Below, in pieces: positions 1 through 63,720 of a DNA stretch of 64,000 nucleotides. The translations under genes and the position numbers were made by a program. This DNA is from Candidatus Fervidibacter sinensis (GTDB lineage Bacteria; Armatimonadota; Fervidibacteria; Fervidibacterales; Fervidibacteraceae): NCBI GenBank assembly GCA_032161045.1, contig JAVHTH010000010.1. One strand, written 5' to 3'. The first letter of the stretch is position 1. The number at the start of each line of letters is the position of its first letter. Under the pieces are notes generated by a model. It worked only from the letters and a program-made list of their open reading frames with translations. It was not told where the DNA came from and did no database searches.

Positions 1-276
1 CGCACACCGCCCAAAATGCAGTTGCACCTTTTGGTGGAATGCAAGAAGTTGCCCGAAGTTGTGGACGAAATAGCAAGAGCCGTCCTGCAATCTTTAGGAA
101 TTGACCCGACCGACGAGGAGAAAATGAAGAAGGCTTCTTTGGCTGTTGAGGAAGTCATGCGACGGTATGTCATGGCTTTTGAATGGTGTGGTTTCACGGT
201 TTTTTGCCAAGAGGCAAAGGGCTACGACCCTTGGAAGTTACAGGAGGCTGAACCTGTAAGTTGGGCTGGAGATTGA
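1..276 (+). CDS. 3' end of an unidentified CDS entering from upstream of the window
   Basis: Frame 1 is open from base 1 to TGA at 274-276. No family recognised from the visible residues. Confidence 0.35.
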   Translation, partial: RTPPKMQLHLLVECKKLPEVVDEIARAVLQSLGIDPTDEEKMKKASLAVEEVMRRYVMAFEWCGFTVFCQEAKGYDPWKLQEAEPVSWAGD

Positions 277-291
277 TGAACCCAAACCGTC

Positions 292-536
292 GTAGGGGCG
301 GATGAAATCCGCCCAAAAATTTCGGGCAGGTTACACCTGCCCCTACAAATCGTTGCAGGAGCGATGAAATCCGCCCGAAAATTTCGGGCAGGCTTCGCCT
401 GCCCCTACAAACCATCGTAGGGGGCGGATGAAATCCGCCCAAAAATTTCGGGCAGGCTTTGCCTGCCCCTACAAATCGTTGTAGGGGCGGATGAAATCCG
501 CCCAAAAAAATTCGGGTAGGCTTTGCCTGTCCCTAC
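292..536 (+). repeat. Tandem array of four REPIN-like double-hairpin units (family A)
   Basis: Units start at 292, 352, 417 and 481. Each is GTAG+GGGCGGAT-GAA-ATCCGCCC, then linker GAAAATTTC, then GGGCAGGC-TTC-GCCTGCCC+CTAC, i.e. two inverted GTAG-headed palindromes. Confidence 0.85.
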
Positions 537-562
537 AAATTCGTTCAAGGCAGGTGACACAA

Positions 563-1896: not shown

Positions 1897-2756
1897 CGAC
1901 TTACGCATACTTTCCGGGCTGCTCGGCTCACGGGACGGCAAAGGAGTATGACCAATCAACGCGCAGCGTTTGCTTAAGGCTTGGGATTGAGTTGAACGAA
2001 ATTCCGGAGTGGGTTTGCTGTGGCGCTTCACCCGCTCATGCTGTCAACCCGTTGCTTTCGCTCGCTTTGGTGGCGAAAAGCCTTGACTTGTCGCCATCAG
2101 ACCAAATTGTCACAGGTTGCGCTGCTTGCTTCAACCGTTTCAAAACTGCCCTTTACACTCTGCAGCACGACAAACCGCTGTGGGAACAAGTGAAACAAAT
2201 CGTTCAGCCGACGAGGTTGAACGGCAGGGAGTTTCGCGTCGCTCACTTGCTTGAAGCAATTTGCGACGATTTTGGGCTTGACAACCTGAAGGAACGGGTG
2301 ACGAAGCCGTTGAAAGGCTTGAAGGTCGCTTGTTACTATGGCTGCTTGCTTGTCCGACCGCCAAAGGTCATGGTCTTTGATGACCCGGACAACCCGATGA
2401 AGATGGACGAATTGATGAAAGCGGTTGGCGCCGAGCCCGTTGAGTGGGAGTTCAAGACCGAGTGTTGCGGTGCGTTCCATGCTATCCCGCACCCTGAAAT
2501 CGTGCTGACACTGACGAGCAAGATTTTGCAGGCAGCAAAAGATGCAGGTGCCGATGTCATCTCCGTCGCTTGCCCGATGTGCCAAATCAATCTTGACTTG
2601 CGCCAACTTGACCTGAAAAAGCAGGGCAAGTCCTTTGACATCCCCGTCCTTTACTTCACGCAAATTTTGGGGCTTGCGCTCGGTATCGCGGAGAACGAAC
2701 TTGGGCTTGACAGACTTATCGTTGACCCGAGACCGAGATTGAGAGAAATTGGATAG
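1893..2756 (+). CDS. hdrB: HdrB-like subunit with two CCG cysteine-rich domains
   Basis: YFPGCS start, WVCCGASPAH and TECCGAFH CCG motifs. ATGA start/stop overlap with hdrC. Confidence 0.8.
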   Translation: MTTYAYFPGCSAHGTAKEYDQSTRSVCLRLGIELNEIPEWVCCGASPAHAVNPLLSLALVAKSLDLSPSDQIVTGCAACFNRFKTALYTLQHDKPLWEQVKQIVQPTRLNGREFRVAHLLEAICDDFGLDNLKERVTKPLKGLKVACYYGCLLVRPPKVMVFDDPDNPMKMDELMKAVGAEPVEWEFKTECCGAFHAIPHPEIVLTLTSKILQAAKDAGADVISVACPMCQINLDLRQLDLKKQGKSFDIPVLYFTQILGLALGIAENELGLDRLIVDPRPRLREIG

Positions 2757-2869
2757 TAGGGGCGGATGAAATCCGCCCGAAAATTCGGGCAGGTTACACC
2801 TGCCCCTACAAATCGTTGCGGGGGCGGATGAAATCCGCCCGAAAATTCGGGCAGGCTTCGCCTGCCCCT
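2756..2869 (+). repeat. Two family-A REPIN units between hdrB and hdrA
   Basis: Units at 2756-2809 and 2815-2869, same architecture as 292-536. The GTAG head begins on the last base of the hdrB stop codon. The hdrA Shine-Dalgarno sequence GGAGG follows directly. Confidence 0.85.
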
Positions 2870-2885
2870 TACGGAGGTTTGGTTT

Positions 2886-4865: not shown

Positions 4866-4871
4866 AATCCT

Positions 4872-4979
4872 GTAGGGGCGGATGTAAATCCGCCCGAAAA
4901 ATTTGGGCAGGTTGCGCCAAGACTTGTAGGGGCGGATGAAATCCGCCCGAAAAATTCGGACAGGCTTTGCTTGTCCCTA
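4872..4979 (+). repeat. Family-A REPIN units (one truncated, one full) between hdrA and the flavoprotein gene
   Basis: GTAGGGGCGGATGTAAATCCGCCC... at 4872 and GTAGGGGCGGATGAAATCCGCCC...GGACAGGCTTTGCTTGTCC at 4926-4979. Confidence 0.8.
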
Positions 4980-5078
4980 AAGTTGTAAGGCAGGTGAAAT
5001 CTTTCGCCGATAAATGTCAGTGTGACGCTTAATGCAAACTGACAGTTTGCGCAGCATAATTTTTGCTGAGGGAGGCGA

Positions 5079-6855: not shown

Positions 6856-8319
6856 ATGCAAACGACGGAAGAAAAAACTTCTGCGCCTGAAGCGGAAAAG
6901 GCAAAGGTGTTGACAATAGAAAGTTTGGCGGAAAGTTTCGCCACCGCCGAGTTGAGGGGCGGGTTGTGTCGGTGGTTCGCTCAACTGAGATGGGGAGCGA
7001 TTGTTGGTGCCGCATTGACAATCATCGTGGCTGCATCTTTGGGAGTTCAGTTGCCGTTACTTTGGCTTTTCCTCACCCTCGCATTCATCGCCCTTTACAA
7101 TGTCGTTTTCCTTTACCTGACTGACCCTCGCCGACCTTCCCGTGTTGACCCGCATCGGTGTGCGTTGTTTCAGGCAACTGCGGATTTGGTTGCTTTGACC
7201 ACGCTGCTTCACTTTTCGGGGAGCATAGAGAACCCGTTTGCTTTCTTCTTCATCTTCCACATGATCATCGCCAGCGTGTTGTTGCCAATTCAATGGGCTT
7301 GGGGGTTAGCATCACTCGCTACTGTTCTGTTTGGTGGAACAGTCTTGGCGGAACATCACGGCTTGCTCACCCACTACCACTTGAACCCGTTCCCGATGAT
7401 CTGTAAATCGCCTCTTTTCGTTGTCGGGACATTGGTTGCGTTCGCTACAACGCTGCATGTCACGGTCTTTATGACTTCGGTTATCGCCACTCGGCTCAGA
7501 CGCCGGGAGCGAGAGGTCAAGGAGTTGGCTCAAACTTTGCGACAATATTCGGAGGAGTTGGAAGAAGCCAATGAACGATTGGAGCAATTGGAGCGGATGA
7601 AATCCACTCACCTGCGCAAGATGAGCCACGAACTGAGGGCGCCTTTAAATGCCGCCAAGAGCCTGATCAACATTCTGAAGGCTGGCTACAAGGGAGAACT
7701 ACCTCCGCCCGCATTGGAGACTTTGGACCGAATTTCAACTCGCTTGGACGAGATGCTCGCCATTGTCAATAGCATTTTAACGCTCTCTCGGGTGCGAGAT
7801 GCCCGTCTAACTCAGGAGCGGGAATGGGTTGATTTCGGTCGCATTGTGAGTGAAGTTGTAGAAGGTTTGCGAGCCAACGCTTTGGCGAAAAACATTGACC
7901 TTCAAGTTGATTTGCTCAGGGGCATCCCACACATTTGGGGAGTCCCTGAAGCCCTGAGGGAGATCGCCTCAAACTTGATTGACAACGCCATCCGATACAC
8001 ACCGAAAGGCGGCAGAGTTGAGGTTCTACTCTACCCGCATGAAGGCGACATCATCTTTCAAGTCAGCGATACCGGCATTGGTATCCCGCCAGAGGATTTG
8101 CCTCATATCTTTGAGGAGTTTTACCGAAGCAGGAACGCAAAAGAGTTCGTCCACGAAGGGACAGGGTTGGGATTGTCAATTGTCAAGTCCGCCGTTGAAG
8201 CCCACAACGGCGAAATTGAGGTCTTCAGCGAACTCGGCAAAGGAACGACTTTCACTGTAACGCTGCCCACCCGAACCAAAGGGAAAGAAGTAGCAAGTGA
8301 AACCAGCGATTTAGAGTGA
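6856..8319 (+). CDS. Membrane sensor histidine kinase
   Basis: Multi-helix hydrophobic N-half, HisKA H-box (MSHELRAPLN), and N, G1 (DTGIGI) and G2 (GTGLGLSI) boxes. No adjacent response regulator. Confidence 0.85.
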   Translation: MQTTEEKTSAPEAEKAKVLTIESLAESFATAELRGGLCRWFAQLRWGAIVGAALTIIVAASLGVQLPLLWLFLTLAFIALYNVVFLYLTDPRRPSRVDPHRCALFQATADLVALTTLLHFSGSIENPFAFFFIFHMIIASVLLPIQWAWGLASLATVLFGGTVLAEHHGLLTHYHLNPFPMICKSPLFVVGTLVAFATTLHVTVFMTSVIATRLRRREREVKELAQTLRQYSEELEEANERLEQLERMKSTHLRKMSHELRAPLNAAKSLINILKAGYKGELPPPALETLDRISTRLDEMLAIVNSILTLSRVRDARLTQEREWVDFGRIVSEVVEGLRANALAKNIDLQVDLLRGIPHIWGVPEALREIASNLIDNAIRYTPKGGRVEVLLYPHEGDIIFQVSDTGIGIPPEDLPHIFEEFYRSRNAKEFVHEGTGLGLSIVKSAVEAHNGEIEVFSELGKGTTFTVTLPTRTKGKEVASETSDLE

Positions 8320-15714: not shown

Positions 15715-17784
15715 CTACCTCAGCCTTGCAATCGTCGTTCCTTGAATTTTCCTTCCTTCATCATCTTGTGCAATTACTCGGACTAAGTATGCACTCGTTG
15801 GCAACACCTCTCCATTGTTCCCCAGACCTTGCCACACAATTTGTTGTTGACCTGCCAAGCGATTCCTACCGCTCTCTAACACCGCTACCTTCCTTCCAGT
15901 CAAGGTCAAAACCTCAACTTGAGTTTGTGCTGGTTTAGTCAATGCAAACTGGATTGATATGCCCCTTCCCCGCATCGGTATCGCCTTCAATCCAACAATG
16001 CGCAAAGGTCGCTCATTGCCCAACTCAGCGATAACCTTGAACCGCCTCTCCGTCTCACCTTCATTCGGCACAAACCGATATTCTGTCTGAGTCCTCATGT
16101 ATCGCCTCGTCCCTGTCGCAAGGTCAACCAAAATCAAACTCACATCCTTTGGAACATGTCCAACTCCATTCCATATCATCGTAACTTCTTTTTGCCTCGT
16201 CCCTCGTCCCCCCTCCCTCGTCCCGAACTTCACAACCACATCCCAAACATGCTGCCTTGCTGCGTTGTTCCTAACATCAACTGCCAAAGGTGCACCATTG
16301 TTGAGCACCAAAACTTGCACATTGCTGCTTCCTTCAGGCGGTTCAGGTGGCAAACCGATTGTAAGTCCTCTTGAACCTTGTGAAACTCCCCAAATTGCCT
16401 CTCCACTCTCGTCACCAACTTTCGCCACCAACTTCACTGTCCATCCATTGCCTTTCACTACTCGTCCCGCGTCCCTCGTCCCCCGTCCCTTGCTTTGGCT
16501 TGGTGGTGGCAGTATAAGTTCGCAGTCGGTATGAGCATAGACCCAATAGCCCTTCCAAGGTTCAAGTTGCCCTTTAACTCCAGGAATGACGCTTGTATCG
16601 TAGACCAGAACATACTTTCCCTTAAACGGGTCATTTTCATCCTGCTCCCATCCCCAAGCGTAATCTTCAATCCAGCCTGCCTGCTGGGCTTGTGCCACAC
16701 TTAACGACTGTTCGCCCTTCCTCACACGAATTCCTTGGCTAATGTCCCAATTAATTGGTTGGGTGAAGGGATTGCTAATAAAATTCCATCCCTTTTGCAA
16801 GGGGATAATGACTTCTTCAGCAAGAGGTTCGCCTACAAGGCTGAAAGGAATCTCTTTGTCCGCCTTAAACCAGTAGCCCTTTCCTGGCTCAATAGCAGCT
16901 CCAACATCTCGGTAACCTTGAATTGAGGGATCCCAAACTTTCATTAGTAGACCATCTAAACCGAGTTCTTGTCGCGTTAAGGATTCCGTTCTTAGGCTTA
17001 AGCCAAATGTTCCGATGCCTTGAGCAAGGCAAGGGACAAACGGTGAGACAGTGAAACTACGCTCTTCACTGCCTTCACTCCATTGTTTCCCATCGTGGGC
17101 ATAAACTTGCCACTTATACTCACCAGCAGATAAGGCGTAGTTCCCTGAAATCCTGAAGTTCGCTATTTCTCCGCTACTGTAACTGAGTTTACTCCAACCA
17201 CTAGTGTCCTTAGTTTGATCAAATTCGTGTATGATTTGTCCATTTCGCTTGATGACTAATTTGTATTTAATAGGATCGCCATCATTGTCAGTTGCTACCA
17301 TTCGGAAAGTTGGAGTGCCGGAGGTCATTGAATCAGGGGCAGGGGAAACTAGTTGTGGAAGCAACGGCGCTTGGTTAACGGTTATCATTCTTGCATTACT
17401 TGCTTCGCTCCATTCTTTCCCGTCAAAGGCGTAAGCAAGCCACAAGTAAGTCCCCGCTGTTAACCTCTGATTTGATGGAACAACAAATGTCGCTTCTTCT
17501 CCACTTGCATACTCACTCTTATCCCAACCTGTCCCCTCTTGTGTTTGGTCAAATACAGCAACAATTTGGTCGCCTTGCTTGACCACTATCTTGAACTTCA
17601 AGTTGTCACTATCAGGATCTGTTGACTTGATTTTGAATGAAAGGGTAGGAGTGACAAAGGAATTGTTTTCTGGAGCAACAAGTTCAGGGGCATTTGGAAC
17701 TTGGTTGACAACGAAACTCCTTTCACTACTGAATTCACTCTCTTGCCCCCTTTCATCTACCGCCTTCGCTCGCCATGTGTCCAT
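15715..17784 (-). CDS. C-terminal portion of the giant S8 protease (separated by a frameshift)
   Basis: Continues the NQxPNxPEL...GxYxWxxxAxD repeat domain that begins in the upstream ORF. C-terminal FlgD-Ig/T9SS-sorting-like beta domain. Carries two GGGACGN modules. Confidence 0.7.
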   Translation of the reverse strand: MDTWRAKAVDERGQESEFSSERSFVVNQVPNAPELVAPENNSFVTPTLSFKIKSTDPDSDNLKFKIVVKQGDQIVAVFDQTQEGTGWDKSEYASGEEATFVVPSNQRLTAGTYLWLAYAFDGKEWSEASNARMITVNQAPLLPQLVSPAPDSMTSGTPTFRMVATDNDGDPIKYKLVIKRNGQIIHEFDQTKDTSGWSKLSYSSGEIANFRISGNYALSAGEYKWQVYAHDGKQWSEGSEERSFTVSPFVPCLAQGIGTFGLSLRTESLTRQELGLDGLLMKVWDPSIQGYRDVGAAIEPGKGYWFKADKEIPFSLVGEPLAEEVIIPLQKGWNFISNPFTQPINWDISQGIRVRKGEQSLSVAQAQQAGWIEDYAWGWEQDENDPFKGKYVLVYDTSVIPGVKGQLEPWKGYWVYAHTDCELILPPPSQSKGRGTRDAGRVVKGNGWTVKLVAKVGDESGEAIWGVSQGSRGLTIGLPPEPPEGSSNVQVLVLNNGAPLAVDVRNNAARQHVWDVVVKFGTREGGRGTRQKEVTMIWNGVGHVPKDVSLILVDLATGTRRYMRTQTEYRFVPNEGETERRFKVIAELGNERPLRIVGLKAIPMRGRGISIQFALTKPAQTQVEVLTLTGRKVAVLESGRNRLAGQQQIVWQGLGNNGEVLPTSAYLVRVIAQDDEGRKIQGTTIARLR
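16197..16225 (-). repeat. (GGGACGN)4 module in frame in the protease gene (sense strand)
   Basis: Reverse complement reads GGGACGA GGGAGGG GGGACGA GGGACGA. Translated GTREGGRGTR. Confidence 0.85.
16461..16489 (-). repeat. (GGGACGN)4 module in frame in the protease gene (sense strand)
   Basis: Reverse complement reads GGGACGG GGGACGA GGGACGC GGGACGA. Translated GRGTRDAGR. Confidence 0.9.
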
Positions 17785-36160: not shown

Positions 36161-36404
36161 AAAATAGGTGCGGAGTGCGGTGTGCGGAGTGCTGGGTTCT
36201 TCAGCAATTCGGCAAATGGGCAGGTCGGGTTAAAATGCACGCTTGCACTCCTGCAAGATTGCACGAAAAACGCGCAATGAATTTTTTCGGCTCACCAGAG
36301 GTTCGCCCTCCATGTGACTTCTACAAAGCCCAAATTTTCAATCTCGCACTTGAACATCCCCAAAAAATCTCCCGAAGCGCCAAACTTATTTGCGGTGTAA
36401 CGGG

Positions 36405-39400
36405 ATGAGGGAAACAATTCACGCTGTGGTAACTTTGGCTTTGACAGTTGCTGTTTTGATTTTCGCCAACTTCTGTGCGCGAGGTGAGGAAGAAATGGCT
36501 GCGTGGACGGCAAAGTGGATTTGGATTGGCGGAACACGGGATAAGGGACACGGGACGAGTGAGGATGGGTTGCCGAGAAATTTCTACCTTTGTGCCCGCA
36601 AGGTTTTTGATGTGCCAAAGGATTTGCAAGAGGCAATTTTGCGGATAACTGCCGATGCCCGTTATGTGCTTTTCGTCAATGGACAGCGCATTGGCAACGG
36701 TCCAATTCGTGGTTGGCAACATTCGTGGTTTTATGACACCTACGACTTGAAACCCCACTTGCGCCCCGGTGAGCGAAACGCTATCGGCGTTTTGGTTATC
36801 CAACCCGGCGAAACCAACTTCCAATACCCACTCGGTCGTGGTGGGTTGCTGGCGCAGTTGGATATGACCACGAAGCGAGGTCGCAAAATCACCGTCGCCA
36901 CCGACCGAACTTGGAAAGTCACTCCCCATCCCGCTTACGACCGACGGACACCACGAATTTCGTGTCAACAAGGGTTTGTGGAGCATTATGACGGGACGCG
37001 GGACGAGGGACGCGGGACGGAGGATTGGACAATGGCTGAGTTTGACGATAGCAAGTGGCAGAGGGCAGTTGAATTAGGTAAAGTCGGCATCGCACCTTGG
37101 AAAAAGTTAGTGCCACGCAACATACCGTTCTTGACAATGGAGCCAGTTTACCCTGTGCGAATTGTGCGAGTGCGAACGGTTGAGCCCCCAACCATCGTTC
37201 ACAGCATTGACCTTCGTCCCAACCTAAGCCCCGGTGACCGATTGTCCAACCCGCACGGCTTGACAGGCTTGGTGTTGACAGTTGTCCGTGCACCGAAACC
37301 GATGGAGGTTCGCGTGCGCGCTATAGGAGGCATCGGATTTGGTGCCCGCAGGGCAAAGGTCAACGGCGAAGACGCAACTTTTGATGAGCACGGCGCAATT
37401 CTGAAGTTGCGCAAGGGTGACAACTTGGTCGTCTTTGATGTGACGCGGGATTGGTATCACGATTGGTGGTTCACGACGGTTTGGGACGCGGGACGGGGGA
37501 CGAGGGACGGGTTAAAATTTGTCAATCCACTGGGGGAAGGTGAAACGGCGTGGGTGACGGCTGGTCCGTTTACTTCGCGCGATGACGAACTCTTCCAAGC
37601 AGTCTGGAACGCAAAATCTGTCACCGAAATTCGTGCCTTGCAGGCTAAATTCCGCACTCCGCACCCCATACTTCGCACAATCGCACTTGAGCATACTGCT
37701 TCCGACCATGTTTTTGCGAAAGTCGTGCTGGCGAAAGGGACGAAGGACGCGGGACGAGGGACGCGAGTTGAGAACTTGGAAGCGATTTGTCAGCCCAACG
37801 ATGAAGTTGCGGTCATTTATCCGCCACGAAAAGGCGATGTTGAGTTGCTTATTGACTTTGGGCGAGAACTCGTTGGATTTTGGGAATTTGAGGTTGATGC
37901 GCCTGCGGGGACAGTGCTTGATTTTTACGGCTTTGAAGCCATCCATCCAACCGATGACGGCGGTTTTGAAATCCAGCACACTTGGGGCTTGAACAATGTG
38001 ATGCGATACATCGCAAAGGAAGGTTGGCAGCGATACACAAGCATCGTTAGGCGTGGCTTCCGATACCTTGTGCTCACAATTCGGTTTGTAGGGGCGGGTG
38101 ATAACCCACCCGAAACTTACGGGCGGACTTCGTCCGCCCCTACAGGGCTATTTCAAAGGACAGGTGATGACCCGCCCGCAAAAACGGGCGAATTGGCATT
38201 CGCCCCTACGAAGTTGCGTCCCGTCCGCATCAAAACTTTGCGTTGCCTGTTGAACACTTACCCTTACACTGAGCGGGGCGAATTCATGTGCGACGATTGG
38301 AAACTCAACGAGATTTGGCGAATGTGCCGATACACGCTTCGGCTTTGCAGCGAGGACACTTTCGTTGACTGCCCAGCATACGAGCAAACTTTTTGGGTCG
38401 GCGATGCGCGAAACGAGGCACTCATCGCTTACGCGACTTATGGCGGTTACGAACTTGCAAGAAGGTGCTGGCTTTTGGCTGGTCAGTCTCTTTGGCGCTC
38501 GCCGCTTGTTGAAAGTCAAGTCCCAAGCGGTTGGCAAGACATCTTGACTGCATGGGCTTTGCTTTGGGTTTGGGCATGCGAGGAGTATTACCGCTATACA
38601 GGTGACGAGGGATTTTTGCGTGAGGTTTACCCGTTTGTTGCTCAGCAAATGCGCAACATCGCAGAAAAATTCATCCGACCCGACGGCTTATTTGAGATTG
38701 AAGCGTGGAATATGCTGGACTGGGCGCCAATGGACACGCCGCGAAAAGGCGTCGTCACACACCAAAATGCGATTCTCGTTGAAGCCTACAGGCGTGCTGC
38801 GACGATGGCACTTTGGTTGGGCAAGGGTGATGACGCAAAAGAGTTTGAGGCGTTGGCGCAAAAGGTTGAAGATGCAATCAATGAACACCTGTGGGATGAA
38901 CAACGGCAGGCTTTTATTGACGCCATCCACGCTGACGGTCGCCGAAGCCAAGTTTTCAGCGTCCAGACACAAACGATGGTTTACCTTTGCGATGCGGTGA
39001 CTGACGAACGCCGACCAATCATTCGCCAATACCTTTACGACAAGCCAGAAGGGTTCGTTTGGTTTGGAAGTCCGTTTGCGCTTTTCTTCCTGCTTGAAGC
39101 CTACGCAAAAGACGGCGAGTTTCAGCGCATCTTGGACATCATTCGGCGCGAGTGGGGTGCAATGATTGACTACGGCGCGACGACAGCGTGGGAAACTTTG
39201 ACGCCACGAACGAGAAGCCACTGCCACGCGTGGAGCGCAGCACCTGCTTACTTCTTGAGCACTTATGTGCTTGGCGTGAGACCAAAGGGCGTAACACGGG
39301 ACAAGGTGCAAGGGACACGGGTGATGGAATACTTCATTGCGCCAAAGCCTTGCGATTTGAAGTGGGCAAAAGGAAGATTCCCAACACCAAGCGGGACGCG

Positions 39401-39674
39401 GGACGAGGGGCATGGGACGAGAAGAGAAAAAGATTTTGCCGAGCCAAGAGAAATTGAGGTTCGTTGGGAGCGAGATGAGCGAAGGTTTACCCTTTGGTTT
39501 GCGTTGCCTAACGCTGTCAAGGCGGAAATTGTCTTACCACCTATCGTGCCTGAGGGCGCAATCGTTGATGTCAAACTTATCAAGGGCGAAGCGACTAAGC
39601 CGAAGTTTGAAGTTAACCATTGGCGCATCAGTGTGAGTGAAGGAACTCAGGGGAAAGTTGAGGCAAGTTGGTGA
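36405..39674 (+). CDS. GH78-like alpha-L-rhamnosidase family six-hairpin glycosidase carrying multiple in-frame repeat insertions
   Basis: AKWIWIGG N-terminal motif, FVDCPAYEQTFWVGDA and TTAWETL...HCHAWSAAP motifs. ATG at 36405 gives a signal peptide. Confidence 0.7.
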   Translation: MRETIHAVVTLALTVAVLIFANFCARGEEEMAAWTAKWIWIGGTRDKGHGTSEDGLPRNFYLCARKVFDVPKDLQEAILRITADARYVLFVNGQRIGNGPIRGWQHSWFYDTYDLKPHLRPGERNAIGVLVIQPGETNFQYPLGRGGLLAQLDMTTKRGRKITVATDRTWKVTPHPAYDRRTPRISCQQGFVEHYDGTRDEGRGTEDWTMAEFDDSKWQRAVELGKVGIAPWKKLVPRNIPFLTMEPVYPVRIVRVRTVEPPTIVHSIDLRPNLSPGDRLSNPHGLTGLVLTVVRAPKPMEVRVRAIGGIGFGARRAKVNGEDATFDEHGAILKLRKGDNLVVFDVTRDWYHDWWFTTVWDAGRGTRDGLKFVNPLGEGETAWVTAGPFTSRDDELFQAVWNAKSVTEIRALQAKFRTPHPILRTIALEHTASDHVFAKVVLAKGTKDAGRGTRVENLEAICQPNDEVAVIYPPRKGDVELLIDFGRELVGFWEFEVDAPAGTVLDFYGFEAIHPTDDGGFEIQHTWGLNNVMRYIAKEGWQRYTSIVRRGFRYLVLTIRFVGAGDNPPETYGRTSSAPTGLFQRTGDDPPAKTGELAFAPTKLRPVRIKTLRCLLNTYPYTERGEFMCDDWKLNEIWRMCRYTLRLCSEDTFVDCPAYEQTFWVGDARNEALIAYATYGGYELARRCWLLAGQSLWRSPLVESQVPSGWQDILTAWALLWVWACEEYYRYTGDEGFLREVYPFVAQQMRNIAEKFIRPDGLFEIEAWNMLDWAPMDTPRKGVVTHQNAILVEAYRRAATMALWLGKGDDAKEFEALAQKVEDAINEHLWDEQRQAFIDAIHADGRRSQVFSVQTQTMVYLCDAVTDERRPIIRQYLYDKPEGFVWFGSPFALFFLLEAYAKDGEFQRILDIIRREWGAMIDYGATTAWETLTPRTRSHCHAWSAAPAYFLSTYVLGVRPKGVTRDKVQGTRVMEYFIAPKPCDLKWAKGRFPTPSGTRDEGHGTRREKDFAEPREIEVRWERDERRFTLWFALPNAVKAEIVLPPIVPEGAIVDVKLIKGEATKPKFEVNHWRISVSEGTQGKVEASW
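36534..36558 (+). repeat. Decayed GGGACGN-heptad module (in register)
   Basis: GGAACAC GGGATAA GGGACAC GGGACGA. Translated GTRDKGHGTS. Confidence 0.6.
36993..37020 (+). repeat. Perfect (GGGACGN)4 module
   Basis: GGGACGC GGGACGA GGGACGC GGGACGG. Translated GTRDEGRGT. Confidence 0.9.
37483..37511 (+). repeat. Perfect (GGGACGN)4 module
   Basis: GGGACGC GGGACGG GGGACGA GGGACGG. Translated DAGRGTRDG. Confidence 0.9.
37737..37765 (+). repeat. (GGGACGN)4 module with one G-to-A change
   Basis: GGGACGA AGGACGC GGGACGA GGGACGC. Translated GTKDAGRGTR. Confidence 0.85.
38088..38209 (+). repeat. GTAG-headed REPIN-like element(s) lying in frame inside the GH78-like CDS
   Basis: GTAGGGGCGGGTG...GGGCGGAC-TTC-GTCCGCCCCTAC (38088-38143), then ...CGCCCG-caaaaa-CGGGCG and GGGCGAAT-TGGC-ATTCGCCCCTAC (to 38209). 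Translated FVGAGDNPPETYGRTSSAPTGLFQRTGDDPPAKTGELAFAPT. Confidence 0.8.
39298..39325 (+). repeat. Decayed GGGACGN-heptad module (in register)
   Basis: GGGACAA GGTGCAA GGGACAC GGGTGAT. Translated TRDKVQGTRV. Confidence 0.55.
39393..39419 (+). repeat. (GGGACGN)4 module with one altered unit
   Basis: GGGACGC GGGACGA GGGGCAT GGGACGA. Translated GTRDEGHGTR. Confidence 0.85.
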
Positions 39675-39724: not shown

Positions 39725-39910
39725 GTAGGGTCGGGCTGCTGTCTGACCGAAAAAATTGGCTGAATGTAGGGCGCGGTTTTACACCGCGCCGAAAAATTTG
39801 TCGGCAGGGTATAAAACCCTGCCCTACAAGGGAAATTTGGCTCAATGTAGGGCGCGGTTTCACACCGCGCCGAAAAAATTTTGTCGGCAGGGTATAAAAT
39901 CCTGCCCTAC
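39725..39910 (+). repeat. Array of variant REPIN units (family A2), 81-nt period
   Basis: Full units at 39766-39827 and 39847-39910: GTAG+GGCGCGGT-loop-ACCGCGCC, linker GAAAAATTTGTC, GGCAGGGT-ATAAA-ACCCTGCC+CTAC. Partial unit at 39725-39765. Confidence 0.8.
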
Positions 39911-39967
39911 AGGTGACGGTTAAGGCGGAGGTTCCTGCAAGCGATTTTGACCCTACTGCGCTAACCT

Positions 39968-63451: not shown

Positions 63452-63720
63452 GTTCGTAGTGAGGCACGGAACGAAGTGGAGTGCCGTTATACAGTTTAGA
63501 AGTTACGCAGTTGGATGTAGGGGCGGCTGCTAAGCCGCCCGTAGGGACGGTTTTAAAACCTTACAAAGGATGTTTTCGGGCAGACTATCGTCTGCCCCTA
63601 CAAAAATGACACCAACTGCGTAAGTCCTAACAGTTGATACGCCACTTCGCTAACGCTTCGTGGCTTACTACGAACAAAAGGAAGTTTGTAGTAAGGCACG
63701 AAACGAAGTGAAGTGCCGTT
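63452..63720 (+). repeat. Composite nested REP structure
   Basis: Outer imperfect inverted repeat 63452-63675 (GTTCGTAGT...ACTACGAAC, TTACGCAGTTGG/CCAACTGCGTAA). It encloses a family-A REPIN (63517-63601) that itself contains GTAGGGACGGTTTTAAAACCTTAC. The 33-nt GTAG-headed left arm (63456-63488) is repeated directly at 63688-63720 with 3 transitions. Confidence 0.75.

What the first reader, a model, noticed from the sequence alone, without database searches (positions are those of the whole stretch)
38088..38209. GTAG-headed palindromic (REPIN-like) element translated in frame inside the GH78-like gene
- About 120 nt with the same architecture as the intergenic family-A repeats lie inside the ORF without breaking it. 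The architecture is a GTAGGGGC head, 7-8 bp hairpins and a CCCCTAC tail.
- The segment encodes about 40 low-complexity residues between the family-typical ...FRYLVLTIR and VRIKTLRCL...GEFMCDD segments.
- In-frame survival of palindromic repeats in CDS is established for Rickettsia palindromic elements. I am not aware of it as a general REP/REPIN property.
- With the six heptad modules, this single gene carries seven repeat insertions and still has an intact 1,090-codon frame.
Basis: partly seen in the sequence, partly recalled or inferred. Interest (0 to 1): 0.72.

Follow-up and report, generated by a model that had tools for sequence, protein, structure and literature searches.

The report
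REP repeat translated inside rhamnosidase gene
A pair of small palindromic mobile repeats (REPINs, normally found between genes) sits in frame inside a hot-spring bacterium's alpha-L-rhamnosidase gene, where it adds a roughly 40-residue floppy loop; this is real, but intragenic repeats of this type have been described in other bacteria.

Summary
Window 38088-38209 holds two tandem REPIN-type units. Each is two GTAG-headed GC-rich hairpins in inverted orientation. They belong to the family that forms intergenic arrays at 290-538, 2754-2872 and 4870-4982. A covariance model built only from intergenic copies scores the two units at E 4e-16 and 2e-4.

The units lie inside an intact GH78 alpha-L-rhamnosidase ORF of a Candidatus Fervidibacter relative (Armatimonadota). 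More than 20 orthologs, F. sacchari and archaeal homologs included, have RF-P(K/Q)GEK-RPV at this point. Four independent assemblies carry the insert: 129 nt replace 15 nt, a net gain of 38 codons.

- Only one of the insert's six reading frames lacks stops, and that is the frame in use.
- The gene stays under purifying selection (dN/dS about 0.3) and keeps its catalytic residues.
- AlphaFold places the insert as a disordered loop (pLDDT below 50) between two confident beta-strands.
- The same loop holds a single REP in a sister lineage and unrelated inserts in two others, so it is a permissive site.
- A REP-associated tyrosine transposase flanked by the same repeats occurs in related contigs.
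- About 280 family units were sampled. The only coding site found is the GH78 one.

Intragenic GTAG REPs were reported by Di Nocera et al. 2013. This is a new member of a known kind, of modest interest.

The parts
36390..39674 (+). GH78 alpha-L-rhamnosidase gene. The ORF runs from TTG at 36390. Likely starts are ATG 36405 (with an N-terminal hydrophobic helix) or ATG 36495 (MAAWTAKW, as called in the 98%-identical P0001).
   Evidence: Pfam hits Bac_rhamnosid_N, Bac_rhamnosid, Bac_rhamnosid6H (2.4e-53) and Bac_rhamnosid_C. PDB 2OKX RhaB matches at E 7.7e-193 and Foldseek TMt 0.86. Residues D660, E665, D672 and E935 are invariant in 32 orthologs.
38087..38215 (+). Lineage-specific segment of 129 nt that replaces the 15 nt (CCCAAAGGGCGAAAA-like) of the empty site. 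It encodes VGAGDNPPETYGRTSSAPTGLFQRTGDDPPAKTGELAFAPTKL in place of P(K/Q)GEK.
   Evidence: Protein alignment and DNA comparisons of the site. AlphaFold gives pLDDT below 50 for residues 569-607, between confident strands 555-565 and 612-623.
38088..38143 (-). REPIN unit 1. REP 38088-38111 (GTAGGGGCGGGTGATAACCCACCC), spacer 38112-38120, inverted REP 38121-38143 (GGGCGGACTTCGTCCGCCCCTAC). Family orientation is the minus strand.
   Evidence: Covariance-model score 66.7 bits, E 4e-16, on the minus strand. The 24-nt REP GTAGGGGCGGACGAAGTCCGCCC has identical intergenic copies in L077, L102, L126, L143 and L154.
38144..38153 (.). Inter-unit linker AGGGCTATTT. Its reverse complement AAATAGCCCT resembles the AAATCGTT linkers of intergenic arrays.
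   Evidence: Comparison with the arrays at 290-538.
38154..38209 (-). REPIN unit 2. Degenerate REP 38154-38177 (CAAAGGACAGGTGATGACCCGCCC, GTAG head lost), spacer 38178-38185, intact inverted REP 38186-38209 (GGGCGAATTGGCATTCGCCCCTAC).
   Evidence: Covariance-model score 24.2 bits, E 1.8e-4, on the minus strand. Direct repeats D1 and D2 with 66-nt spacing and hairpin I8.
290..538 (+). Intergenic array of four REPIN units of the same family, upstream of an hdrC-like gene.
   Evidence: 75-87 bits each.
2754..2872 (+). Intergenic pair of REPIN units of the same family.
4870..4982 (+). Intergenic pair of REPIN units of the same family. The first unit is truncated.
39764..39912 (.). Two units of a related but distinct GTAG REPIN subfamily (TGTAGGGCGCGG...CCCTGCCCTACA) just downstream of the GH78 stop codon.
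   Evidence: (30 and 22 bits).

Best explanation
The segment is a fragment of a REPIN array: two REPINs, that is four GTAG-headed REP hairpins, plus their linker. The family is non-autonomous and is served by a REP-associated tyrosine transposase (RAYT).

The fragment entered the codons for a beta-hairpin turn (RF-PKGEK-RPV). The turn lies between the last two strands of the beta-sandwich domain, just before the catalytic (alpha/alpha)6 barrel of a Fervidibacter GH78 rhamnosidase.

It survived for three reasons:
- The net change is a multiple of three.
- The one stop-free frame of the element coincides with the gene's frame.
- The site is a loop that tolerates extra length.

The encoded G/P/T/A-rich peptide of about 43 residues is carried as a disordered loop. 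The element is a passenger. Its stems and GTAG tags are now decaying by ordinary substitution while the enzyme stays under purifying selection.

Shown: family membership, the insertion relative to orthologs, the intact frame, selection on the gene, loop placement in a model, and a cognate RAYT in related contigs. Inferred: the way of entry (RAYT transposition versus recombination), translation of the loop, and neutrality of the loop.
For: Family membership:
- Covariance model from intergenic copies only, E 4e-16 and 2e-4.
- Motif enrichment of 15 against 0.57 expected.
- 303 of 329 single REPs in the sample keep perfect inner stems, across 12 arm variants, and the CDS variants GGAC, GGGT and GAAT are among them.

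Insertion:
- More than 20 orthologs have the empty site RFP(K/Q)GEKRPV. They include F. sacchari PD1, F. canadensis and archaeal homologs.
- The window, L001, L007 and L037 carry the insert.

Survivor filter: only frame +0 of the six frames of the 122-nt element lacks stops, and it is the frame in use.

The gene is still functional:
- dN/dS outside the insert is 0.28-0.35 among carriers.
- Catalytic-site columns are invariant and map to RhaB D567/E572/D579/E841 in the 2OKX alignment. The roles of those residues come from my own knowledge of the RhaB structure paper.

Permissive loop:
- pLDDT is below 50 for residues 569-607, between confident strands.
- The 2OKX alignment jumps from query 569 to query 610 at chain residue 517.
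- The same loop holds a single REP in L008 and unrelated inserts in L014/P0015 and P0016.

Passenger behaviour:
- Insert divergence among carriers is 2.5-4.1%, against 1.3-4.3% for the rest of the gene.
- Three of the six substitutions fall in the three well-formed stems and one destroys a CTAC/GTAG tag. None is compensated.

Cognate transposase: a 183-aa RAYT scores 92.8 bits on NCBIfam NF047646 (cut-off 80). It and its homologs in L079, L156 and L157 are flanked on both sides by arrays of this family.
Against: - No expression or proteomic data exist, so translation of the loop is inferred.
- The RAYT loci are on other contigs or MAGs and are not shown to belong to the window's own genome.
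- The junctions are not clean. Fifteen ancestral bases are replaced and there is no target-site signature, so one-step RAYT transposition is not demonstrated.
- The ancestral site (AAGGGCGAAAAG) resembles a REP without its hairpin, and L008 carries only one REP. Both fit recombination or stepwise growth as well.
- Too few substitutions (six) exist in the insert to distinguish neutrality from weak constraint. dN/dS in the insert is 0.18-0.54.
- The structural placement rests on a prediction with pTM 0.78 and a shallow alignment of 32 sequences.
Confidence: 0.78

Rival explanations
1. The element is the same, but it arrived differently. The repeat was not transposed in one step by a RAYT. It entered by microhomology-mediated recombination, gene conversion or template switching with a REP copy, and then grew. 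The order would be a single REP first (the L008 state, +15 nt), later extended to two REPINs in the carrier clade. The reverse order, a full insert largely deleted in L008, is also possible.
For: - The empty site CCAAAGGGCGAAAAG matches the REP on both sides of the hairpin (AGGGGC...CGAAAA).
- L008 is sister to the carrier clade in a neighbour-joining tree. It has one REP, GTAAGAGCAGGTGTTAACCTGCCCGAAACT, at the identical 5' junction and in the same frame.
- The insert includes an array-type linker, so it looks like a copied piece of an array and not a single REPIN.
Against: - The similarity of the target to the REP is short. My rough estimate of a 7-nt chance match is about 0.1.
- L008 differs from the window's REP at 5 of about 33 positions, one stem pair among them. 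Independent insertion of another variant at a hot spot cannot be excluded.
- There is no direct evidence for gene conversion.
Confidence: 0.3
2. The insert has been exapted. The extra loop, or the mRNA hairpins it forms, now serves the enzyme or its expression, for example in substrate or partner binding, flexibility, translational pausing for folding, or mRNA stabilisation.
For: - The insert has been kept in frame in four assemblies that differ by up to 4% in DNA.
- dN/dS in the insert is below 1, at 0.18-0.54.
- The RNA is still predicted to fold at 75-85 C, at -23 to -17 kcal/mol.
Against: - The loop is predicted to be disordered.
- Substitutions break stems and a GTAG tag without compensation.
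- The conserved ancestral turn PKGEK was overwritten.
- The same loop accepts unrelated inserts in other lineages, which argues for tolerance and not need.
- Six substitutions carry no statistical weight.
Confidence: 0.07
3. The gene is dead or split. The insert marks a pseudogene, or two separate genes that happen to share a frame.
For: None beyond the presence of a repeat inside an ORF.
Against: - A single ORF of 1050-1094 codons is intact in four assemblies.
- dN/dS is about 0.3.
- All GH78 domains and the catalytic residues are present on both sides of the insert.
- Synteny with GH20 and DUF4175 neighbours is conserved.
Confidence: 0.03
4. The insert is an assembly artefact. Repeat-induced misassembly placed REP sequence inside the gene.
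For: REPs often break or confuse short-read assemblies. The RAYT contigs are short.
Against: The same junctions appear in four independent assemblies from different projects, each with its own point differences. Both flanks are collinear with orthologs.
Confidence: 0.01

Closest known systems
Intragenic GTAG-type REPs (Di Nocera et al. 2013, BMC Genomics 14:522, PMC3733652)
   Same: GTAG-tagged GC-rich palindromes, mostly extragenic, are occasionally found inside ORFs of known proteins. Most intragenic cases are dimers or groups encoding 20-30 aa, with clusters encoding 43-82 aa. The authors suggest the inserts are neutral and lie in loops or linkers.
   Different: The host is different: Fervidibacter (Armatimonadota), whose cultivated relative is a hyperthermophile. 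The target is different: a glycoside hydrolase, where that paper found many cases in DNA repair and replication genes. Here the empty site, a possible intermediate state and the age of the insertion can all be read from orthologs.
REPIN/RAYT system (Bertels and Rainey; Nunvar et al.; reviewed in PMC3337134)
   Same: Two inverted REPs with a short spacer form the unit. The RAYT gene is flanked by the same repeats. The population holds many sequence variants that keep the hairpin.
   Different: REPINs are described as extragenic. This copy is coding, and it is a tandem pair with one decayed REP.
Rickettsia palindromic elements (RPE; Ogata et al. 2000, Science 290:347)
   Same: A palindromic repeat is inserted in frame in a protein-coding gene that stays functional. 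The extra peptide is thought to lie on the protein surface.
   Different: There is no evidence of a sequence relation. RPE-1 elements are longer single units, and many genes are affected per Rickettsia genome. Here one coding site was found among about 280 sampled units. Di Nocera et al. class RPE-4 and RPE-6 as CGTC REPs, not GTAG REPs.
In-frame MITE and small-repeat fusions in other bacteria (Delihas 2007, 2011; PMC3184786)
   Same: Small mobile repeats with open frames are found fused to or inside ORFs.
   Different: Those are mostly TIR-type MITEs or terminal extensions, not RAYT-type REPs inside an enzyme domain.

Membership tests
GTAG-type REP / REPIN | A short GC-rich imperfect palindrome with a conserved GTAG tetranucleotide at one end. 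| tested here: met
   Three of the four REPs in the CDS keep GTAG/CTAC plus an 8-bp stem. In the sample, 303 of 329 single REPs have perfect inner stems, with 12 arm variants.
GTAG-type REP / REPIN | Two REPs in inverted orientation separated by a short spacer (the REPIN unit). | tested here: met
   Units 38088-38143 and 38154-38209 have the layout of the intergenic consensus. A covariance model with two hairpins and an outer stem matches them at E 4e-16 and 2e-4.
GTAG-type REP / REPIN | Many copies per genome, predominantly extragenic. | tested here: met
   GTAGGGGC occurs 15 times in the window against 0.57 expected. There are 281 distinct units in 1.54 Mb of related contigs, and all but the GH78 site lie outside long ORFs. 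The sample was selected for the repeat, so density is not estimated.
GTAG-type REP / REPIN | A cognate RAYT gene flanked by the same REPs. | tested here: met
   L079 8642-9193 scores 92.8 bits on NF047646 REP_Tyr_transpos (cut-off 80) and hits Pfam Y1_Tnp. L079, L156 and L157 are all flanked on both sides by the family. Caveat: these are other contigs or MAGs of Armatimonadota, and none lies in the 64-kb window.
GTAG-type REP / REPIN | Mobilisation by the RAYT (cleavage and joining at the GTAG-tagged hairpin). | not testable with these tools
   Only indirect evidence is available: presence or absence of the element at orthologous sites.
Rickettsia palindromic elements (RPE) | Sequence membership in an RPE family. 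| not tested
   No RPE sequences were compared. Rfam holds no matching family for the region, and the best hits lie far below gathering scores. The resemblance is functional only: in-frame survival.
GH78 alpha-L-rhamnosidase (host gene) | The (alpha/alpha)6 catalytic domain with conserved acidic catalytic residues, plus the N-terminal and beta-sandwich domains. | tested here: met
   Pfam domains. 2OKX matches at E 7.7e-193 and TMt 0.86. D660, E665, D672 and E935 are invariant. Enzyme activity itself was not tested.

The most novel reading that the evidence does not exclude
In the Fervidibacter lineage, two classes of short repeats may repeatedly colonise loops of glycoside hydrolases and persist there for long periods. 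The two classes are RAYT-type REPINs and GGGACGN heptanucleotide triplets encoding GTRDEGR-like peptides. If so, repeat insertion would be a regular source of loop-length variation in enzymes of this lineage, whose cultivated relative is a hyperthermophile. The GH78 loop at residues 566-610 would be a hot spot that shows successive states: empty, single REP, double REPIN, and heptad module.
Probability: 0.12. Interest if true: 0.55.

Novelty: new member of a known kind. Interest (0 to 1): 0.3.

Why it matters
The case is clean and datable. A RAYT-type REPIN has been carried in frame by an enzyme whose cultivated relative grows at 65-87.5 C. The empty site, a possible intermediate and the full insert are all visible in related genomes, and a cognate transposase is in view.

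It offers a natural test of how much disordered loop a thermostable glycoside hydrolase tolerates.

It is also a caution for annotation. Repeat-masking or model-based gene calling could split or truncate such genes, and spurious ORFs run through REP arrays.

It does not change the picture of REP biology, because intragenic GTAG REPs are already documented.

Tried and rejected
1. A covariance-model hit at 7585-7622 inside a histidine-kinase-like ORF (18.7 bits). Reading the sequence shows a chance match, GGAGCGGATGAAATCCACTC, with no indel.

2. Other candidate CDS-internal units from the ORF-span screen (L038, L069, L075). All are open frames running through REP arrays upstream of real genes, not insertions.

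3. Protein-level searches for REP-encoded peptides.
- A composite 164-aa query found only one array-derived ORF and did not even recover the GH78 carriers, so it is uninformative, probably because of composition filters.
- An exhaustive phmmer search with the array ORF 197-505(-) found two proteins. One is an array ORF and the other is an unrelated repeat protein.

4. Rfam scan of the region. Nothing came near any gathering score.

5. RAYT in the window itself. None of the roughly 60 long ORFs looked like a RAYT by size or position next to REPs. They were not all scanned with Pfam.

7. The Fervidibacter sacchari genome paper mentions no palindromic repeats or insertions.
Full report
**What is there**

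The stretch 38088-38209 reads GTAGGGGCGGGTGATAACCCACCC-GAAACTTAC-GGGCGGACTTCGTCCGCCCCTAC, then a 10-nt linker, then CAAAGGACAGGTGATGACCCGCCC-GCAAAAAC-GGGCGAATTGGCATTCGCCCCTAC. These are two units. Each consists of two GC-rich hairpins in inverted orientation with a GTAG/CTAC tag at the outer ends.
- Two stems are perfect 8-bp helices, one has a single mismatch, and the fourth is degenerate and has lost its GTAG.
- The frame of ORF 36390-39674 runs through the stretch without a stop.

**Is it more than chance, and is it the intergenic family?**

- GTAGGGGC occurs 15 times in the window against 0.57 expected.
- The other copies form arrays between genes of an hdr-like operon (290-538, 2754-2872, 4870-4982) and a single unit at 63515-63603.
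- I built a covariance model from seven intergenic units only, with two hairpins and an outer GTAG/CTAC stem. It finds the CDS units at 66.7 bits (E 4e-16) and 24.2 bits (E 2e-4). Both score better on the minus strand, so the CDS copy is inverted relative to those arrays.
- Read on the minus strand, unit 1 differs from the consensus mostly by paired changes that keep the stems.
- One of its REPs, GTAGGGGCGGACGAAGTCCGCCC, has identical intergenic copies elsewhere.
- Across all sampled DNA, 303 of 329 single REPs keep perfect inner stems in 12 arm variants.

The unit matches the published definition of a REPIN: two inverted REPs with a spacer.

**The host gene**

- Pfam finds the full GH78 set of domains on both sides of the insert.
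- The closest solved structure is Bacillus sp. GL1 RhaB (2OKX, E 7.7e-193). The alignment jumps from query residue 569 to 610 at chain residue 517, so the insert has no counterpart there.
- Foldseek agrees, with TMt 0.86.
- Residues D660, E665, D672 and E935 align with RhaB D567, E572, D579 and E841 and are invariant in 32 orthologs. The roles of those residues come from my own knowledge of the RhaB structure paper.
- The organism is a relative of Candidatus Fervidibacter (Armatimonadota) from hot springs.

**The indel**

A graded series of orthologs from 98% down to 44% identity was aligned.
- All orthologs except the closest have RF-P(K/Q)GEK-RPVRIK. They include F. sacchari PD1, F. canadensis and roughly 60%-identical homologs in archaeal MAGs.
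- The window and P0001 have RF-VGAGDNPPETYGRTSSAPTGLFQRTGDDPPAKTGELAFAPTKL-RPVRIK.
- At the DNA level, 129 nt (38087-38215) replace 15 nt, a net gain of 114 nt.
- Four independent assemblies carry the insert: the window, L001, L007 and L037. Each has its own point differences, which rules out misassembly.

**Age and selection**

- The carriers differ by 1.3-4.3% in the gene and by 2.5-4.1% in the insert.
- dN/dS outside the insert is 0.28-0.35, so the gene has stayed under purifying selection since the insertion.
- The six substitutions inside the insert include three in the well-formed stems and one that destroys a CTAC tag. None is compensated. The element itself looks to be decaying.

**A wider history of the loop**

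- L008 (MAG SKYB17) is sister to the carrier clade in a neighbour-joining tree. At the identical 5' junction and in the same frame it has a single REP, GTAAGAGCAGGTGTTAACCTGCCCGAAACT, giving RF-VRAGVNLPETQ-PIRIK.
- One reading is that an ancestral insert was later trimmed in L008. Another is that a single REP came first and was extended in the carrier clade. A third is that the site is a hot spot hit twice.
- Two further lineages carry unrelated inserts in this loop: L014/P0015, and P0016 with a GDAGRGARD heptad-type module.
- The loop is therefore a permissive site.

**Structure**

The AlphaFold model (mean pLDDT 78.7, pTM 0.78) has confident strands at 555-565 and 612-623 and pLDDT below 50 for 569-607. 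The insert is a disordered excursion from a beta-hairpin turn in the sandwich domain that precedes the catalytic barrel.

**Why this copy survived**

Of the six reading frames of the 122-nt element, only one has no stop codon, and it is the frame in use. Together with the net length of 3n and the loop position, this fits a survivor filter. Most insertions of this family into genes would be lethal to the gene and lost.

**How general is it in this lineage?**

- One scan of public metagenome contigs for the REP core returned 120 stretches.
- nhmmer found 281 distinct units in 1.54 Mb. An ORF-span screen left only the GH78 site as a true coding location.
- Protein-level searches added nothing.
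- The coding location is an exception here, not a property of the family.

**The transposase**

- Among ORFs flanked by REPs on both sides, L079 8642-9193 encodes a 183-aa protein. It scores 92.8 bits on NCBIfam NF047646, REP-associated tyrosine transposase (cut-off 80), and hits Pfam Y1_Tnp.
- This protein and its homologs in L156 (an NCBI Armatimonadota MAG) and L157 are flanked on both sides by arrays of this family.
- This meets the last defining feature of a REPIN/RAYT system, with one caveat: none of these contigs is shown to come from the window's own genome.

**How it got in**

This step is inferred.
- The segment looks like a copied piece of an array, with two units and an array-type linker.
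- There is no target duplication, and 15 ancestral bases are gone.
- The empty site (AAGGGCGAAAAG) resembles a REP without its hairpin. With the L008 state, this leaves room for recombination or stepwise growth in place of one-step RAYT transposition. I rate that variant at about 0.3.

**RNA**

The region is predicted to fold strongly, at -60 kcal/mol at 37 C with z = -5.4. It still folds at -23 to -17 kcal/mol at 75-85 C. Any effect on translation or mRNA decay is untested.

**Comparison with what is known**

- Di Nocera et al. 2013 surveyed GTAG and CGTC REPs and reported intragenic copies in several species. Most are dimers or groups encoding 20-30 aa, and clusters encode 43-82 aa. The authors argued that such inserts probably sit in loops and are neutral.
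- Delihas 2011 reviews other in-frame repeat fusions.
- What is new is the host lineage, the enzyme class, and the unusually complete comparative picture.

**Verdict**

The feature is real, well explained, and a new member of a known kind. Interest is about 0.3.

Noticed in passing
window 36545-36556, 36993-37018, 37483-37508, 37737-37762, 39290-39320, 39393-39411; also 16199-16224 and 16464-16489 (minus strand): Tandem GGGACGN heptanucleotide triplets encode GTRDEGRGT-like peptides. There are 20 matches to GGGACGNGGGAC with at most 1 mismatch, against 1.1 expected. Almost all lie inside two ORFs, the GH78 gene and ORF 15715-17784(-). In the GH78 gene they are indels relative to orthologs at 67% identity or less but sit at fixed positions in orthologs at 77% or more. 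Two of them (residues 49-60 and 1002-1019) coincide with pLDDT<50 segments of the model.
   Followed up: partly
L008 10830-10870 (MAG SKYB17): A single REP hairpin, GTAAGAGCAGGTGTTAACCTGCCCGAAACT, sits in frame at the same 5' junction of the same GH78 loop, in the sister lineage of the insert carriers. It is either a remnant or a precursor of the double REPIN.
   Followed up: partly
L014 11555-11668; protein P0016: Two other Fervidibacter-clade orthologs carry unrelated short inserts in the same loop: GQGRRGMGAKKG, and PKG-DAGRGARDTRS-ERR of the heptad type.
   Followed up: no
L079 8380-9480; L156 4047-5012; L157 105-1199: REPtron organisation: a RAYT gene of 180-183 aa is bracketed on both sides by arrays of 3-5 REPIN units of the same family. 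The contigs are short, probably because the repeats break assemblies.
   Followed up: yes
window 39764-39829 and 39845-39912: A second GTAG REPIN subfamily (TGTAGGGCGCGGTTTTACACCGCGCC...GGCAGGGTATAAAACCCTGCCCTACA) lies in the spacer between the GH78 stop codon and the DUF4175 gene.
   Followed up: no
loci L018-L025: GH78 homologs at 58-61% identity, with the same conserved RFPKGE(K/T) loop, occur in archaeal MAGs from hot springs (Brockarchaeota, Thermoproteota, Nitrososphaerota). This suggests gene transfer between the domains.
   Followed up: no
L007, gene columns 2921-2947 (corresponds to window about 39390-39440): In L007 the last heptad module region is replaced by different sequence with a 27-nt in-frame length difference (TPYERSGSWQRRSE against TPSGTRDEGHGTRREKDFAEPRE). 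That module site is therefore also variable.
   Followed up: no
window 194-505 (minus strand): A 103-codon ORF runs through the four-unit REP array and yields FVGAGKACPKFLGGFHPP-type repeats. Similar array-derived ORFs are present as predicted proteins in public databases, for example P0133. They are annotation artefacts.
   Followed up: partly
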